DNA of 64,000 bases from an uncultured Acidimicrobiales bacterium (GTDB taxonomy: Bacteria > Actinomycetota > Acidimicrobiia > Acidimicrobiales > VFJN01). Positions within the stretch are counted from its first letter, which is position 1; every line of letters begins with the position of its first letter. The DNA lies in the NCBI GenBank assembly GCA_963735375.1, contig CAVTKS010000002.1, positions 68,569-132,568 of the forward strand, in the 5' to 3' direction. Of this stretch, positions 2,595 through 59,213 are shown in pieces. Below the pieces are notes generated by a model. That model saw nothing but the letters and a program-made list of their open reading frames with translations, was not told the DNA's origin and did not search any database. The translations under genes and the position numbers were made by a program.

Positions 2595-3887
2595 ATGAGC
2601 GTGTACCAGTACCCCGCACCGGCGTCGCCGTATGCCCCGGCGGCACCAGCCGACCCGACTGCCGTCATGGGTCGCCGCATCGGCGGGTGGGTGATCGACT
2701 TCCTGATCTACACGCTGATCATGGCGTTCGTGACGGCCACTCCGCTCAGCCCCATCGCCGAGTACGTCGACCAGAACGAGAACCCGGGCGTCACGTGCGA
2801 CGAGGTGCAGGACCTCAACGACGTGTCGAGCTGTGTCGACATCGGAGATCGCCTGTACTTCACCGACAGCGGCGACGTGTGGATACAGCTCCTCACCGTC
2901 GTCGCGTTCGTGCTGCTCTACTCCCTTCTCCAGGGCGCCACGGGCGTCACCCCCGGGAAGGCGGCGTTCGGCGTCAAGGTCGTCAACGAGCAGGGGCAAC
3001 GCCCCGGCTTCGGCAAGTCGTTGGTGCGGACGGTCCTGTGGGCGGTCGACCTCGCGCCATGGTGCATCCCCGGGCTCGTCGGCCTCATCACAGGCCTCAC
3101 CACCAAGGGCCACCGCCGCGTCGGCGACATGGCCGCCAAGACGTTCGTGGTGGGCAAGGCCCACACCGGCCCGGTCGTCGTGCCCGGCCTGGCCACAGCC
3201 GCGACCGGCGGCTACCCGGGTGGACCCGGCGCCTACGGCGCGCCCGGCCAGCCGTGGGGCGGTCCCCCGCCGGGCGGCGCCGCCGGTCCACCGACGGCAT
3301 GGGGCGGGCCCCCGCAGCCGCAGCAGCCCCAGCAGGGTGCCTGGGGTACCCCGCCCGGTGGCGCATACCCGCCGGGCGGTACGTCGGGCCCCCCTGTCAC
3401 GGGTCCGTCCGTCGCTGGTTACCCCGCCCCGGGGACGACGCCAGGTGGTCCGCCCTCAGGCGAGCATCGGCCCGCACCTCCCAGTGGCTGGGCGGCACCC
3501 GGTGGCGAATCGCCGGCACCCGGCACACCCACCTCGACGCCGACCGATCGACCGTCTCCCACCCCTGGCGGGCCGTCGTCCGCGACCCCCGGCACCACCG
3601 CGCCCGGCGGATCCGACGCGGCGGCGCAGCCGTCGTCACCGTCCGACACGCCGTCTGCAGCGGGCGCACCGTCCAGGCCGGAGCCCTCACCGGGCGCGCC
3701 CTCCACAAGCGGCACTCCCGCGTCGTCCGCAGCGGGGCCGGGCACCCCGGCGAGCGGGTCCCAGGCGGCGCCGAGCGGGTACAACCCGCAGTGGGATGCC
3801 GCGCGCGGCACCTACATCGTGTGGGAGCCCAACCGGGGCAAGTGGCTGGGCTGGGACGAGGCGGCCCAAGAGTGGAAGCCGCTGTGA
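2595..3887 (+). CDS. RDD family membrane protein with long Pro/Gly/Ser-rich C-terminal tail
   Basis: N-terminal RDD-like TM domain (GRRIGGWVIDFLIY .. HRRVGDMAAKTFVV). This is followed by about 230 aa of low-complexity P/G/S/T/A sequence ending in a short W-rich segment. Confidence 0.7.
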   Translation: MSVYQYPAPASPYAPAAPADPTAVMGRRIGGWVIDFLIYTLIMAFVTATPLSPIAEYVDQNENPGVTCDEVQDLNDVSSCVDIGDRLYFTDSGDVWIQLLTVVAFVLLYSLLQGATGVTPGKAAFGVKVVNEQGQRPGFGKSLVRTVLWAVDLAPWCIPGLVGLITGLTTKGHRRVGDMAAKTFVVGKAHTGPVVVPGLATAATGGYPGGPGAYGAPGQPWGGPPPGGAAGPPTAWGGPPQPQQPQQGAWGTPPGGAYPPGGTSGPPVTGPSVAGYPAPGTTPGGPPSGEHRPAPPSGWAAPGGESPAPGTPTSTPTDRPSPTPGGPSSATPGTTAPGGSDAAAQPSSPSDTPSAAGAPSRPEPSPGAPSTSGTPASSAAGPGTPASGSQAAPSGYNPQWDAARGTYIVWEPNRGKWLGWDEAAQEWKPL

Positions 3888-3918
3888 CCCACGGGATGGC
3901 CACCGTCGGCGGCTGAGA

Positions 3919-4638
3919 TCACCCGCGGTGCAGGGCGCTGACCGACCGCAGGCGCCGCTCGACGTGGTGCTCGAACGCCCGCACGACCAGGTGATCCACC
4001 TCTGACACGACCGGCCCGCGGGTCTCGTTGAGCGCGGTGCCCAGCCGGCCGCCGAGAATGTGCTGCAGCACGGCCACCGCGTCGGGGCTGACCGCCGGGC
4101 CCTGCCGGTGGGTGCTGCAGCGCAGGCCGCCCTCCTCCAGCGCCCACGACACGAGCGGGCCCTCGCTGTCGCATGCGACGCACGCCTCGACCTGGGGACG
4201 GAACCCCTCGAGCGCCAGCGCCTTGAGGAAGAACCCCGGCACGACCAGGGGCGCGTCCTGGGTGGCGAGCGTGCGCAGCGCGCCCACCAGCATCTCGTAC
4301 AGGCGGGCATTGGGCTCGCGCTCGAGGGCGAGCTGGTCGGCCGCCTCGAGCATGGCGATCGCCCGCCCCAGGCGGTCGTAGTCGTCGCGCAGTGGCCGGA
4401 AGTGGTCGAGCGTCTCGGCCTGGGACACGATGTCGAGGTCGCTGCGCCCCTCGTAGAGCAGCAGGTCGACGTGGCTGGTGGGCTCGAGGCGGCCGCCGAA
4501 GCGGCTCTTGGTCTTGCGGACGCCCTTGGCGACAGCTCGCACCTTGCCGTGGCCCCGGGTGAGGAACGTGACGATGCGGTCGGCCTCGCCGAGCTTGTAC
4601 GTGCGCAGGACCACGCCGCGGTCGTGGTACAGCGGCAC
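3919..4638 (-). CDS. recO: DNA repair protein RecO
   Basis: MPLYHDRGVVLRTYKLGEADRIVTFLTR.. OB-fold N-terminus and a Cys cluster (CVACDS..C). 239 aa. Confidence 0.9.
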   Translation of the reverse strand: MPLYHDRGVVLRTYKLGEADRIVTFLTRGHGKVRAVAKGVRKTKSRFGGRLEPTSHVDLLLYEGRSDLDIVSQAETLDHFRPLRDDYDRLGRAIAMLEAADQLALEREPNARLYEMLVGALRTLATQDAPLVVPGFFLKALALEGFRPQVEACVACDSEGPLVSWALEEGGLRCSTHRQGPAVSPDAVAVLQHILGGRLGTALNETRGPVVSEVDHLVVRAFEHHVERRLRSVSALHRG

Positions 4639-57056: not shown

Positions 57057-57929
57057 ATGGCGCTCTACGAGCTGATCGAACAACCCGACCTCGATGAGCC
57101 GCTGCTCGTGCTCGCGCTCGAGGGCTGGATCGACGCGGGCCTCGCGGCCGCCGGTGCCGCCGAGGTGCTGTCCGACCGGCTCGACACGGTCACGGTCGCC
57201 CGGTTCTCGACCGACGACCTGCTGGACTACCGCGCCCGCCGCCCGATCGCGCACCTGGCCGACGGCGTGCTGCGCGGGCTCACGTGGCCCGACATCGAGC
57301 TGCGGGCGGCGACCGACGGCGACGGCAACGAGATGCTGCTGCTCGTGGGCGCGGAGCCCGACAGGTTGTGGCACCAGTTCACCGACGAGGTCGTGACGCT
57401 GGCGCTCGACTTCGGCGCCCGCATGTGCGTCGGCCTCGGTGCCTACCCGTTCGCCGCGCCGCACACCCGGTCGCCCCGCGTGGCCTGCACGGCCTCGACG
57501 CCCAGACTGGCCGAGGGCACGTTCCTCAAGGCGTCGCTCGACTTCCCCGGCGGCATCCAGGCCGCCATCGAGCAGGGCTGCGACGAGCGCGGCATCCCGT
57601 CGGTGGGCCTGTGGGCACAGATCCCCCATTACGTGCCGTCGGCGATGCCGTTCCCCGCGGGCAGCGTCGCCCTCATCGAGAGCCTGAGCCTGCTCGGCGA
57701 CCTGGCGTTGCCGCTCGGCGACCTGTCGGCCCGCGCCGACGCCACCCGTTCCCGGCTCGACGAGCTCATCGCGCAGAACCCCGAGCACGTCGAGATGCTC
57801 CACCAGCTCGAGGTGGCTTGGGAGCAGTCGGAGCGGCCCGACGAGCCGATCGGCATCTCCGATCTGCCCACAGGCGACGAGCTGGTGGCCGAGCTCGAGG
57901 AGTTCCTCCGCGACCAGCGCCCGGACTGA
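57057..57929 (+). CDS. PAC2 (proteasome assembly chaperone 2-like) family protein
   Basis: LLVLALEGWIDAGLAAAGAAEVL N-terminal signature. 290 aa. Stop TGA 57927-57929 lies inside the first tandem-repeat unit. Confidence 0.75.
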   Translation: MALYELIEQPDLDEPLLVLALEGWIDAGLAAAGAAEVLSDRLDTVTVARFSTDDLLDYRARRPIAHLADGVLRGLTWPDIELRAATDGDGNEMLLLVGAEPDRLWHQFTDEVVTLALDFGARMCVGLGAYPFAAPHTRSPRVACTASTPRLAEGTFLKASLDFPGGIQAAIEQGCDERGIPSVGLWAQIPHYVPSAMPFPAGSVALIESLSLLGDLALPLGDLSARADATRSRLDELIAQNPEHVEMLHQLEVAWEQSERPDEPIGISDLPTGDELVAELEEFLRDQRPD

Positions 57930-58165
57930 GCGAGCGTCCCGAAGGGCGAGAGAGCGAGCGAGGCCCGAGCGGCCCGGCCGAAGGCCAAGAGCGGGGAACA
58001 CTGAGCGAGCGTCCCGAAGGGCGAGAGAGCGAGCGAGGCCCGAGCGGCCCGGCCGAAGGCCAAGAGCGGGGAACACTGAGCGAGCGTCCCGAAGGGCGAG
58101 AGAGCGAGCGAGGCCCGAGCGGCCCGGCCGAAGGCCAAGAGCGGGGAACACTGAGCGAGCGTCCC
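57926..58165. repeat. Perfect 75-bp tandem repeat, 3 full copies + 15-bp partial copy (MIRU/VNTR-like)
   Basis: Units start at 57926, 58001 and 58076 and are identical base for base. The partial unit is 58151-58165. Unit: CTGAGCGAGCGTCCCGAAGGGCGAGAGAGCGAGCGAGGCCCGAGCGGCCCGGCCGAAGGCCAAGAGCGGGGAACA. Confidence 0.97.
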
Positions 58166-58183
58166 TTGACCCGCCGGTCAAGG
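58164..58183. terminator. Hairpin CCTTGACC-CGCC-GGTCAAGG immediately after the repeat array
   Basis: 8-bp perfect stem and 4-nt loop, read directly. Could be a terminator for the PAC2 gene or an operator. It overlaps a TTGACC -35-like hexamer. Confidence 0.4.
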
Positions 58184-58196
58184 TGCGGAGTAGGTT
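58166..58196 (+). promoter_or_regulatory. Candidate promoter (TTGACC - 19 nt - TAGGTT) giving a leaderless transcript for the LLM gene
   Basis: The -10-like TAGGTT (TANNNT) ends 6 nt before ATG 58203, and there is no RBS. The spacer is 19 nt, longer than optimal. Confidence 0.35.
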
Positions 58197-58202
58197 GCGG
58201 CC

Positions 58203-59213
58203 ATGAAGATCGACGGGGGCATCCGAGGTGGGCTCGACCGGGCACAGGCAGCGGCCGCCGAGCTCGAGCGGCGCGGTTACGACGGCGTGATGACGGCCGA
58301 GACCAGTCACGACCCGTTCCTGCCGCTGCTGCTGGCCGCACAGGACACCGAGCGCGTCGACCTGATGACATCGATCGCCGTGGCGTTCGCCCGCAGCCCG
58401 ATGACGCTCGCGCAGACCGCGTGGGACCTGCAGGCGGGCTCGCAGGGGCGCTTCGTCCTCGGCCTCGGCAGCCAGATCAAGCCGCACATCACTCGCCGGT
58501 TCTCGATGCCCTGGTCGCACCCGGCGCCACGGATGCGCGAGATGATCCTGGCCATCCGGGCCATCTGGGCGTGCTGGAACGAGGGCACCAAGCTCGACTT
58601 CCAGGGAGACTTCTACACCCACACGCTGATGACCCCGTTCTTCAACCCGGGGCCCAACCCCCACGGCGACGCCCGCGTCTTCCTCGCCGGCGTGGGCGAG
58701 CTGATGACCGAGGTCGCCGGAGAGGTGGCCGACGGGTTCATCTGCCACGGCTTCACCACCCGTCGCTACCTCGACGAGGTCACGCTGCCGGCGCTCGAGA
58801 AGGGGCGGTCCAAGGCGGGCAAGACGATGGACGGGTTCGAGCTGTCGGGCCCGATGTTCGTCGTCACCGGGCGCGACGAGGCCGAGATGGCCGAGGCGGC
58901 CAAGGGCGTCCGGGGCCAGATCGCCTTCTACGGCTCGACGCCCGCCTACCGCAAGGTGCTCGACCTGCACGGCTGGGGTGACCTGCAGGACGAGCTGAAC
59001 CGCATGTCCAAGGAAGGTCGCTGGGCCGAGATGGGCGAGCTGATCGACGACGAGATCCTGGCCGAGTTCGCCGTGGTGGCACCGCTCGACGAGGTGGCCG
59101 CGGGGCTGCACGCGCGCTGGGGCGACGTGCTGGCCCGGCTGAGCTTCTACACCCCGTACGAGTCGGACTCGACTCCCTGGGACCAGGTGATCGCCGACCT
59201 CAAGGCGGCCTGA
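58203..59213 (+). CDS. LLM-class (luciferase-like) F420-dependent oxidoreductase-like protein
   Basis: 336 aa, TIM-barrel LLM pattern (GYDGVMTAETSHDPFLPL.., FVLGLGSQIKPHITRRF, FYGSTPAYRKVL). Confidence 0.8.
   Translation: MKIDGGIRGGLDRAQAAAAELERRGYDGVMTAETSHDPFLPLLLAAQDTERVDLMTSIAVAFARSPMTLAQTAWDLQAGSQGRFVLGLGSQIKPHITRRFSMPWSHPAPRMREMILAIRAIWACWNEGTKLDFQGDFYTHTLMTPFFNPGPNPHGDARVFLAGVGELMTEVAGEVADGFICHGFTTRRYLDEVTLPALEKGRSKAGKTMDGFELSGPMFVVTGRDEAEMAEAAKGVRGQIAFYGSTPAYRKVLDLHGWGDLQDELNRMSKEGRWAEMGELIDDEILAEFAVVAPLDEVAAGLHARWGDVLARLSFYTPYESDSTPWDQVIADLKAA

What the first reader, a model, noticed from the sequence alone, without database searches (positions are those of the whole stretch)
57926..58165. 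Perfect 75-bp x3.2 intergenic tandem repeat, in frame with the upstream gene and TGA-punctuated (MIRU-like VNTR)
- Three base-for-base identical 75-bp units plus a 15-bp partial unit fill the spacer between the PAC2-family gene and the LLM oxidoreductase gene.
- The unit length is a multiple of 3.
- The PAC2 stop codon (57927-57929) is part of unit 1.
- In that frame every unit is 24 sense codons (ASVPKGERASEARAARPKAKSGEH) closed by TGA.
- This recalls mycobacterial MIRUs, which are 46-101 bp intergenic tandem repeats whose small ORFs overlap the flanking genes' stop/start codons.
- Zero divergence between copies implies very recent expansion or ongoing homogenisation.
- The 3' end of the PAC2 gene (..AGCGCCCGGACTGAG) resembles the unit junction (..AGCGGGGAACACTGAG), which hints at how the repeat was seeded.
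- The unit also contains small GAA-loop hairpins (CCC-GAA-GGG, GGCC-GAA-GGCC).
Basis: partly seen in the sequence, partly recalled or inferred. Interest (0 to 1): 0.65.

Follow-up and report, generated by a model that had tools for sequence, protein, structure and literature searches.

The report
Start-less copy of MIRU-like relay repeat
The perfect 75-bp x3.2 array is real and is a local tandem expansion of a small repeat found across the genomes of Acidimicrobiia soil bacteria, a repeat that normally sits on stop/start gene junctions and passes ribosomes on through a mini reading frame, much as the MIRU repeats of mycobacteria do; this copy lacks the start codon and looks like a recent, probably harmless passenger behind the PAC2 gene.

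Summary
In detail: window 57927-58165 holds three identical 75-bp units plus a 14-nt partial unit, starting on the PAC2 stop codon.

- **Not unique.** The unit belongs to a dispersed family with about 45-88 copies at 34 or more loci in this genome. It occurs in 22 of 24 other species of the genus and 37 of 146 sampled Acidimicrobiia genera, and in no other class sampled.
- **Family design.** Typical members lie between co-oriented genes. They begin with the upstream TGA inside ATGA or GTGA and end with a Shine-Dalgarno-like tail plus ATGA on the next start. The unit length follows a 3n-1 rule (65 of 69 units, 10 length classes), so a 21-35-codon mini-ORF relays translation. This is the MIRU design, without the RAYT-type (REP-associated) transposase or terminal inverted repeats.
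- **Window array.** It is a start-less variant (CTGA junctions, period 75 = 3n), so its in-frame TGAs are a coincidence of length. It lies in the PAC2 3' region, next to a conserved promoter-like site for a leaderless LLM transcript.
- **Age.** None of 26 genus relatives has the array there, so it is recent.

The parts
57057..57929 (+). PAC2-family gene; its stop codon TGA (57927-57929) is the first triplet of repeat unit 1
   Evidence: ORF list; Pfam PF09754 E 1e-48; the same 3' end ..gaccagcgccc(c/g)gacTGA occurs in relatives that lack the array
57926..57929 (+). CTGA: presumed 4-nt target, repeated at every unit junction (58001-58004, 58076-58079, 58151-58154)
   Evidence: The base before the first TGA equals the base before the next TGA in 72 of 76 units (A/A 60, C/C 7, G/G 5, G/A 4). 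Empty sites in relatives carry a single NTGA.
57927..58001 (+). Repeat unit 1 (75 nt): 5' box TGAGCGAGCGTCC; hairpin CCC-GAA-GGG 57938-57946; helix GCGAGC/GCGAGC 57930-57935 with 57954-57959; central hairpin GGCC-CGAGC-GGCC 57960-57975; hairpin GGCC-GAA-GGCC 57976-57986; tail AAGAGCGGGGAACAC 57987-58001
   Evidence: Alignment A1; pair counts; hairpin survey; 93% identical to copies on contig C7
58002..58076 (+). Repeat unit 2, identical to unit 1
   Evidence: TRF 100% matches; sequence
58077..58151 (+). Repeat unit 3, identical to unit 1
   Evidence: TRF 100% matches; sequence
58152..58165 (+). Terminal partial unit TGAGCGAGCGTCCC (the 5' box only). Together with the preceding C it forms a 15-nt direct repeat with the array start, the likely substrate for slippage.
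   Evidence: Sequence. Similar terminal partial units follow other arrays and single copies. The relative L021 has TGA-CGGGCGACCC-TTGACC here.
58164..58183 (+). Conserved palindrome CCTTGACC-CGCC-GGTCAAGG containing a -35-like TTGACC (58166-58171). Not part of the repeat; it marks the end of the insertion.
   Evidence: Present with variable 4-nt centre in about 20 relatives directly upstream of the LLM gene
58191..58205 (+). -10-like TAGGTT (58191-58196), 6 nt, then ATG 58203: inferred leaderless start of the LLM gene
   Evidence: TTGACC-19 nt-TA(G/C)G(G/T)T-6/7 nt-ATG is conserved in relatives. The consensus scan did not call it (19-nt spacer, weak -10), so the promoter is inferred.
58203..59213 (+). 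Luciferase-like (LLM) oxidoreductase gene, downstream neighbour, not translationally coupled to the array
   Evidence: ORF list; PF00296 E 5.5e-62

Best explanation
**What it is.** The array is three tandem copies plus a 14-nt partial copy of a small non-autonomous repeat that is spread through Acidimicrobiia genomes.

**How the family works.**
- The element lands in a fixed orientation on an NTGA tetranucleotide at a gene's stop codon and duplicates it.
- Its own first bases restore the upstream TGA.
- Its purine-rich tail (AGGAGCGGGGAGCA) supplies a Shine-Dalgarno-like site (ribosome-binding site).
- At ATGA or GTGA targets the duplicated tetranucleotide supplies a start codon. A throw-away mini-ORF of 21-35 codons then begins on the upstream stop and ends on the downstream start.
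- This is why start-capable units have a length of 3n-1, and why the insertion does not break translational coupling.

**What happened here.**
- The target was the CTGA of PAC2 (..GAC TGA). No start codon was created and the frame rule does not apply (75 = 3n).
- The copy simply restores the PAC2 stop and extends its 3' untranslated region by 225 nt.
- The insertion ends 1 nt before the -35-like TTGACC of the downstream LLM gene's inferred leaderless promoter, and its last two bases form the outer pair of the conserved palindrome that holds that box.
- The three identical units arose by recent slipped-strand or unequal-exchange duplication between the 15-nt direct repeats that flank a unit.

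**Shown versus inferred.**
- Shown: family membership, design rules, the 4-nt repeat, absence of the array in relatives, hairpin covariation.
- Inferred: transposition-like insertion, translation of the mini-ORFs, slippage as the amplifying step, and that this copy is a near-neutral passenger.
For: - **Dispersed family.** BLAST gives 57 matches on all 7 contigs. nhmmer gives 45 copies at 34 loci. The covariance model R1 gives 88 matches.
- **Context in this genome.**
  - 33 of 34 loci start with TGA.
  - The base before it is A in 23, G in 5 and C in 4.
  - In 22 of 34 the TGA closes a long ORF with high third-position GC (a real gene).
  - 30 of 34 have a co-oriented gene start within 60 nt.
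  - In 16 single copies the mini-ORF stop overlaps the downstream ATG.
- **Frame rule in five genomes.** 65 of 69 start-capable units have a period of 3n-1 across 10 length classes (68 to 104). 0 of 7 CTGA units do (75 x3, 79 x3, 73).
- **Empty versus filled site.** About 20 genus members have a plain A/GTGA overlap between the enolase gene and its neighbour. This genome has one 77-nt unit between ATGA and ATGA. The relative G017 has two units at the same site.
- **Window locus.** 26 of 28 genus genomes have the PAC2-LLM junction and none has the array. One has a relic of a related element.
- **Structure.**
  - The helix GCGAGC/GCGAGC is 100% paired. Three of its 4 pairs have compensatory changes, and 0 of 500 shuffles reach this.
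  - The 3' hairpin has perfect stems in 64 of 75 copies, with 8 or more different stem sequences.
  - Its loops are GNA in 66 of 75 copies.
- **Tail and ribosome.** The 16S rRNA 3' end is CACCUCCUUUCU, and the tails carry AGGAG or GGGGAG.
- **Same design in a different family of the class.** It bridges the acyl carrier protein gene and fabF there.
- **MIRU features from the literature.** See PMC12548453 and PMC3184786.
Against: - No transcript, ribosome or read data could be obtained, so translation of mini-ORFs and the exact copy number are unverified.
- Predicted folding energies of single units and of the array are no better than shuffled sequence (z from -1.2 to +2.4). The case for structure rests on covariation only.
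- No mobilising enzyme was found, so 'insertion' is inferred from empty and filled sites.
- Flank similarity to the element often extends beyond 4 nt (up to 15-17 nt). A simple 4-nt target duplication does not explain this.
- The closest other copy in the genome is only 93% identical, so no recent donor is visible.
- A host function of this copy cannot be excluded.
Confidence: 0.8

Rival explanations
1. The array has a host function at this locus. It could be a structured 3'-UTR module that stabilises or ends the PAC2 transcript. It could also be a variable-length spacer directly upstream of the LLM promoter that tunes read-through or promoter strength with copy number.
For: - The array abuts the -35-like TTGACC and replaces the upstream promoter region seen in relatives.
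- All four conserved pairings are intact in each unit.
- Hairpins are kept although the relay function is absent here.
Against: - No terminator-like site was found and there is no U tract.
- Folding is not better than shuffled sequence.
- 26 relatives manage without any element here, and their spacers are highly variable.
- The same element sits in dozens of unrelated contexts.
Confidence: 0.15
2. The copy number or the perfect identity is an assembly or polishing artefact. The real locus would hold a different number of units, or slightly diverged units that were homogenised.
For: - The genome is a 7-contig, 91% complete assembly.
- Earlier, unchecked first-reader notes report broken frames at homopolymer runs in this window (e1-4992052, e1-4992053).
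Against: - Tandem arrays of 2-4 identical or near-identical units of this family occur at many loci in this genome and in independently assembled genomes.
- 225 bp would be spanned by long reads, if the assembly is long-read (not established).
- CTGA-type junctions recur at four other loci in this genome and in another genome.
Confidence: 0.08
3. The repeat is protein-coding. It could be a repetitive C-terminal extension of PAC2 by stop-codon read-through, or a repeat peptide in the open -1 frame.
For: The unit is a multiple of 3. The -1 frame is open across the array and beyond.
Against: - Every unit has an in-frame TGA in the PAC2 frame.
- The -1 frame has no start codon here (CTG only) and runs out of frame into the LLM gene, which is typical of spurious ORFs in 72% GC DNA.
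- Across the family the peptide changes freely while the hairpin stems covary.
- Relatives' PAC2 proteins end at the same residue.
Confidence: 0.02
4. It is a REP/BIME element (repetitive extragenic palindrome) moved by a RAYT (Y1 HUH transposase), or a classical MITE (miniature inverted-repeat transposable element) moved by a DDE transposase.
For: It is a short GC-rich hairpin repeat, dispersed and intergenic, with a 4-nt flanking direct repeat.
Against: - Y1_Tnp (PF01797) was found in 0 of 25 genomes of the genus. The control search detected it in 6 of 14 reference genomes.
- Copies are all co-oriented with genes and never in inverted doublets.
- There are no terminal inverted repeats beyond chance.
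- There is no replication-strand bias (9 of 17 loci against a 51% gene baseline).
Confidence: 0.03

Closest known systems
MIRU, mycobacterial interspersed repetitive units (Supply et al. 1997; summarised in PMC3184786 and PMC12548453)
   Same: - Size 40-100 bp, with tens of copies per genome.
- Intergenic within operons and co-oriented with genes.
- A small ORF overlaps the upstream stop and the downstream start (-4 nt coupling).
- Tetranucleotide direct repeats at filled sites and empty sites in relatives.
- Tandem copies whose number differs between genomes.
- No transposase of their own.
   Different: - The host is a different class (Acidimicrobiia, not Mycobacterium).
- The covariance model finds nothing outside Acidimicrobiia in a 401-genome sample of the phylum, so no sequence relationship is detectable.
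- The conserved parts differ from anything I know of MIRUs: 5' box TGAGCGAGCG, GGCCCGAGCGGCC hairpin, C-GNA-G triloop hairpin.
- The window copy lacks the mini-ORF start and the coupled downstream start.
The 'relay repeat' of Acidimicrobiia noted repeatedly in this scan (e1-2377408, e1-2392219, e1-2350205 and others); I found no published description
   Same: - Same sequence family: shared 5' box, central hairpin, GNA hairpin and AGAGCGG tail.
- Same ATGA-to-ATGA design, tandem expansion and class-wide spread.
   Different: Those notes describe relay-competent copies between coupled genes. The window array is the start-less CTGA form at the end of a transcription unit, and it breaks the 3n-1 rule.
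REP/BIME elements and their RAYT transposases
   Same: Short, GC-rich, hairpin-forming, dispersed extragenic repeats, often in the 3' regions of genes.
   Different: - No RAYT/Y1 transposase in the genus.
- Fixed orientation relative to genes instead of inverted pairs.
- Coding-phase constraint (3n-1), which REPs lack.
d(GCGNAGC) DNA mini-hairpins (PMC13037366, PMC3201870)
   Same: The 3' hairpin loop is GNA closed by C.G in 66 of 75 copies. Many copies contain GCGAAGC itself.
   Different: This is a structural motif, not an element family. Whether the hairpin acts as DNA or as RNA here is unknown.

Membership tests
MIRU (mycobacterial interspersed repetitive units) | 40-100 bp unit, tens of dispersed copies per genome | tested here: met
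   Units of 63-104 nt. 45 (nhmmer) to 88 (covariance model) copies in this genome.
MIRU (mycobacterial interspersed repetitive units) | Lies between genes of an operon, in the genes' orientation | tested here: met
   Family: 30 of 34 loci have a co-oriented gene start within 60 nt, and in 22 of 34 the first TGA is the upstream gene's stop. Window copy: co-oriented and on the PAC2 stop, but the next gene appears to have its own promoter.
MIRU (mycobacterial interspersed repetitive units) | Internal small ORF whose start overlaps the upstream stop and whose stop overlaps the downstream start (ATGA, -4 spacing) | tested here: not met
   For the window copy: junctions are CTGA, the period is 75 = 3n, and there is no coupled downstream start. 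For the family the feature is met: 65 of 69 start-capable units are 3n-1 and chain into the next ORF.
MIRU (mycobacterial interspersed repetitive units) | Tetranucleotide direct repeats at filled sites; empty sites in related genomes | tested here: met
   NTGA on both sides in 72 of 76 units. Empty enolase junctions in about 20 relatives. An empty PAC2-LLM spacer in 26 relatives.
MIRU (mycobacterial interspersed repetitive units) | Copy number at a locus varies between strains (VNTR) | tested here: inconclusive
   Between species: 1 unit against 2 units at the enolase junction.
MIRU (mycobacterial interspersed repetitive units) | Sequence related to the mycobacterial units | tested here: inconclusive
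   Model R1 hits only Acidimicrobiia among 401 genomes sampled from the phylum. No MIRU sequence was available for a direct comparison.
   All are present in each window unit. 93% identity to copies on contig C7. nhmmer E 3.2e-15 per unit.
REP/RAYT | A Y1 (IS200/IS605-like) RAYT transposase gene in the genome | tested here: not met
   PF01797: 0 of 25 genus genomes. The control detected it in 6 of 14 reference genomes.
MITE (DDE-type) | Terminal inverted repeats | tested here: not met
   Best end-to-end inverted match is 4-6 nt, no better than shuffled ends.
Rfam RNA families | Match to a curated covariance model | tested here: not met
   Only a chance-level hit elsewhere in the region (P37, E 3.1, 16.5 bits against a cut-off of 50).

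The most novel reading that the evidence does not exclude
The family would be an undescribed, class-wide mobile element that homes strand-specifically to NTGA at stop and stop/start junctions.

- **Recognition and mobilisation.** It would be recognised through sense-strand C-GNA-G mini-hairpins and the GGCCCGAGCGGCC hairpin. It would be moved by an enzyme that is neither a Y1 HUH transposase nor a DDE transposase acting on inverted ends.
- **What the start-less CTGA copies would show.** Copies such as the window array keep every hairpin and still expand in tandem without any relay function. That would mean the hairpins serve the element's own propagation, and that the relay mini-ORF is only what lets insertions at coupled junctions survive selection.
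Probability: 0.35. Interest if true: 0.75.

Novelty: new variant of a known kind. Interest (0 to 1): 0.5.

Why it matters
**Why the family matters.** How MIRUs arise, move and are tolerated has been unclear since their description in 1997.
- This is an unrelated family in another actinobacterial class with the same design, hundreds of copies, many length classes and many empty and filled sites.
- It gives an independent and much larger data set for testing the 'self-neutralising insertion' idea.
- The strict 3n-1 rule predicts that the mini-ORFs are translated, which can be tested directly.

**Why this array matters.** It is the informative exception.
- It is a copy on a CTGA stop that cannot relay. 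It ignores the frame rule, yet it keeps its hairpins and still amplifies.
- This separates what the host selects (the relay) from what the element itself needs (the hairpins).

**Practical points.**
- Such arrays are candidate strain-typing markers for uncultured soil Acidimicrobiia.
- They are a likely source of annotation errors, such as false small ORFs and mis-called starts beginning MSERP.

Tried and rejected
- **Rfam scan of the region:** nothing.
- **Thermodynamic folding** of the array and of single units, as RNA and as DNA, on both strands: not better than shuffles. Structure is therefore argued from covariation only.
- **REP/RAYT hypothesis:** no Y1 transposase in the genus. Rejected.
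- **Classical MITE:** no terminal inverted repeats. Rejected.
- **Replication-strand bias**, expected for hairpin elements that move as single-stranded DNA on the lagging-strand template: none (9 of 17 loci against a 51% gene baseline). Power is low because half of the loci lie in regions of weak skew.
- **Long autonomous element with the same ends:** none found. Only solo 5' boxes at gene starts.
- **Sigma-70 and terminator consensus scan:** no calls. The leaderless promoter is inferred from conservation in relatives.
- **Search for conspecific strains to test copy-number variation:** two exact-pattern scans of metagenome contigs and an exact-protein look-up found nothing.
rejected, because relatives without the repeat have the same end.
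- **A CRISPR-like array** was considered and dismissed. Units are contiguous, with no spacers.
Full report
**1. The observation**

Tandem Repeats Finder reports one outstanding array in the window: 57925-58165, period 75, 3.2 copies, 100% matches, score 482. Read directly, the layout is as follows.
- The PAC2 stop TGA (57927-57929) is the first triplet of unit 1.
- The units are 57927-58001, 58002-58076 and 58077-58151.
- A 14-nt partial unit, TGAGCGAGCGTCCC, follows at 58152-58165.
- In the PAC2 frame each unit is 24 sense codons closed by TGA. The -1 frame is open throughout.
- The neighbours are a PAC2-family gene and a luciferase-like oxidoreductase (LLM) gene.

**2. The unit is not unique**

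- A BLAST search of the whole genome (4.84 Mb, 7 contigs, 72% GC) finds 57 matches on all seven contigs.
- Iterated nhmmer gives 45 copies of a core of about 68 nt at 34 loci, as singles, doublets and triplets.
- A covariance model built from 32 units (A1, R1) finds 88 matches in this genome.
- The model also finds 3 to 109 matches in 22 of 24 other species of the genus, but in only 2 of 16 other families of the order.
- In a wider sample of the class, 61 of 301 genomes and 37 of 146 genera have matches, often in tandem.
- In 401 genomes drawn from the whole phylum, only Acidimicrobiia genomes matched.
- Record titles of relatives identify the organism as an uncultured Acidimicrobiales bacterium.

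**3. Anatomy of the family**

Every unit has the same order of parts.
1. A 5' box, TGAGCGAGCGTCC.
2. A variable module: CCC-GAA-GGG plus GAGAG, a shorter GCAATGCAG, or longer hairpins in other genomes.
3. A second GCGAGCG.
4. The hairpin GGCC-CGAGC-GGCC.
5. A second hairpin with a three-base loop.
6. A purine-rich tail, A(A/G)GAGCGGG(G/A)A(G/A)CA.

Two pairings are supported by covariation.
- The two GCGAGC boxes pair around a tandem G.A. This helix is 100% paired, 3 of its 4 pairs show compensatory changes, and 0 of 500 shuffles reach this.
- The 3' hairpin has a perfect stem in 64 of 75 copies, with at least eight different stem sequences: GCTGC/GCAGC, GGCC/GGCC, GGCGC/GCGCC, GCAGC/GCTGC, GGTGC/GCACC and others.
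- Its loops are GNA in 66 of 75 copies. This is the C-GNA-G / GCGNAGC mini-hairpin known for exceptional stability in DNA (PMC13037366, PMC3201870).

Nearest-neighbour folding does not rate the units above shuffled sequence. The evidence for structure is therefore comparative, not energetic.

**4. Context and the relay rule**

Context in this genome:
- 33 of 34 loci begin with TGA.
- The preceding base is A in 23, G in 5, T in 1 and C in 4.
- In 22 loci this TGA closes a long ORF with high third-position GC, the mark of a real gene in this 72% GC genome.
- In 30 loci a co-oriented gene starts within 60 nt of the end.
- In 16 single copies a mini-ORF that starts on the ATGA/GTGA overlap ends in a TGA overlapping the next gene's ATG.

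The tail carries AGGAG or GGGGAG, complementary to the 16S rRNA 3' end CACCUCCUU.

Because each mini-ORF starts one base before a TGA and ends on the next TGA, the TGA-to-TGA distance must be 3n-1.
- I tested this on this genome plus 40 loci fetched from four other genus members.
- 65 of 69 start-capable units obey the rule, across ten length classes (68, 71, 74, 77, 80, 92, 95, 98, 101, 104).
- In tandem arrays the mini-ORFs form unbroken chains into the downstream gene.
- The same design bridges the acyl carrier protein gene and fabF in a genome of a different family of the class.

This is the arrangement described for MIRUs: insertion at start codons with an internal ORF coupled at -4 nt (PMC12548453; PMC3184786).

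**5. Evidence for insertion**

- At the enolase/downstream-gene junction, about 20 genus members have a plain A/GTGA overlap. This genome has one 77-nt unit between ATGA and ATGA. The relative G017 has two units at the same site.
- The base before the first TGA and the base before the next TGA agree in 72 of 76 units: A/A 60, C/C 7, G/G 5 and G/A 4. This fits a 4-nt NTGA duplication.
- No Y1 (RAYT/IS200-type) transposase exists in any of 25 genus genomes, while the control search worked.
- There are no terminal inverted repeats.
- No long element with the same ends was found.
- There is no replication-strand bias.

The mobilising mechanism is unknown. An unexplained point is that flank similarity to the 5' box often runs well beyond 4 nt. 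Many downstream genes begin ATGAGCGAGC.., and arrays end in partial units.

**6. The window array within this picture**

- Its junctions read CACTGA, not CAATGA, so no start codon is present. Its period is 75 = 3n.
- The other CTGA-type units do not obey 3n-1 either. They lie on contigs C6 and C7 of this genome and in locus L149 of another genome, with periods of 79, 79 and 73.
- CTGA is exactly the end of PAC2 (..GAC TGA). Relatives without any repeat have the same PAC2 end. This fits insertion on a CTGA target and refutes the idea that the gene's end derives from the repeat.

Downstream of the array lies a palindrome, CCTTGACC-N4-GGTCAAGG, containing TTGACC.
- It is followed after 19 nt by TAGGTT, then 6 nt, then the LLM ATG.
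- This block is conserved in about 20 relatives, where it lies 5-50 nt behind the PAC2 stop.
- I read it as the promoter of a leaderless LLM transcript. This is an inference; the consensus scan did not call it.
- The LLM gene therefore needs no relay, and a start-less copy does no harm here.

Of 28 genus genomes, 26 have this junction and none has the array. One (G010/L037) has a relic of a related 3' module. Others carry unrelated insertions. The insertion is thus specific to this species.

The identity of the three units points to a very recent local duplication. The 15-nt direct repeat CTGAGCGAGCGTCCC at both ends of a unit is the obvious substrate for slippage. The nearest other copy in the genome is 93% identical, so no recent donor is visible.

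**7. Verdict and limits**

The array is a real, recent, tandemly expanded, start-less member of a MIRU-like relay-repeat family of Acidimicrobiia, and most probably a tolerated passenger in the PAC2 3' region.

Limits:
- It is not a MIRU by descent as far as can be detected, and this copy fails the MIRU hallmark of a coupled mini-ORF.
- I found no publication describing the family.
- Other agents of this scan have met the family repeatedly. Their notes agree with my reading but are not independent evidence.
- Not testable here: read support, copy-number variation between strains, transcription and translation.

Noticed in passing
window 58164-58205: The palindrome CCTTGACC-CGCC-GGTCAAGG contains TTGACC. 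It is followed after 19 nt by TAGGTT, then 6 nt, then the LLM ATG. The block is conserved in about 20 relatives with a variable 4-nt centre. It is probably a leaderless promoter with an overlapping operator or hairpin.
   Followed up: partly
L043 about 3885-4040 (the PAC2-LLM spacer of another species): A different hairpin repeat of about 75 nt (CTTCTGCCCGCGCTCACC..GGTCAGCGCGGGCAGAAAG) is present twice in the same spacer. This spacer seems to be a hot spot for small insertions.
   Followed up: no
L116/L123 (G009:C350) and L023, between PAC2 and the LLM gene: Relatives carry an insertion of about 0.7 kb here. By eye it encodes a MazF/PemK-like toxin (..GEVWWADVPGDKVRPVVVLTRQRF..). G022 has an unrelated insert of about 0.8 kb.
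   Followed up: no
G000 C2:238985-239166, C7:183233-183413, C1:634903-635074 and about 30 single loci: Sister repeat families share only the 3' half (GTGGCCCGAGCGGCCCG, GNA hairpin, AGAGCGGGA tail) joined to other 5' modules. Several of them form x3 tandem arrays.
   Followed up: partly
G000 C1:508181, C5 minus strand (index 235675 on the reverse complement), C6:338560, C6:909536: These genes begin ATGAGCGAGCGTCC (MSERP..) with no element in front. They may be excision footprints, element-derived N-termini or preferred targets.
   Followed up: no
G000 C1:615410-615545: One family copy is interrupted after the second GCGAGCG box by about 50 nt of lower-GC sequence (GATCCCTGCAGATCGATACCTTTCGAACGCGATCAG..). 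This may be a nested insertion.
   Followed up: no
L068 (G017:C12 about 357980-358135): In the relative G017 the last enolase codons (GGG ATG CAA TGA) are identical to the element tail GGGATGCAATGA. Recombination among units may have rewritten the gene's 3' end.
   Followed up: no
type-A units, e.g. G000 C6:298028-298104: The minimum-energy fold pairs the 5' box GC-GUCCCG with the tail CGGGA-AGC. This would hide the Shine-Dalgarno-like tail until a ribosome translates the mini-ORF. Both segments are nearly invariant, so covariation cannot test it.
   Followed up: no
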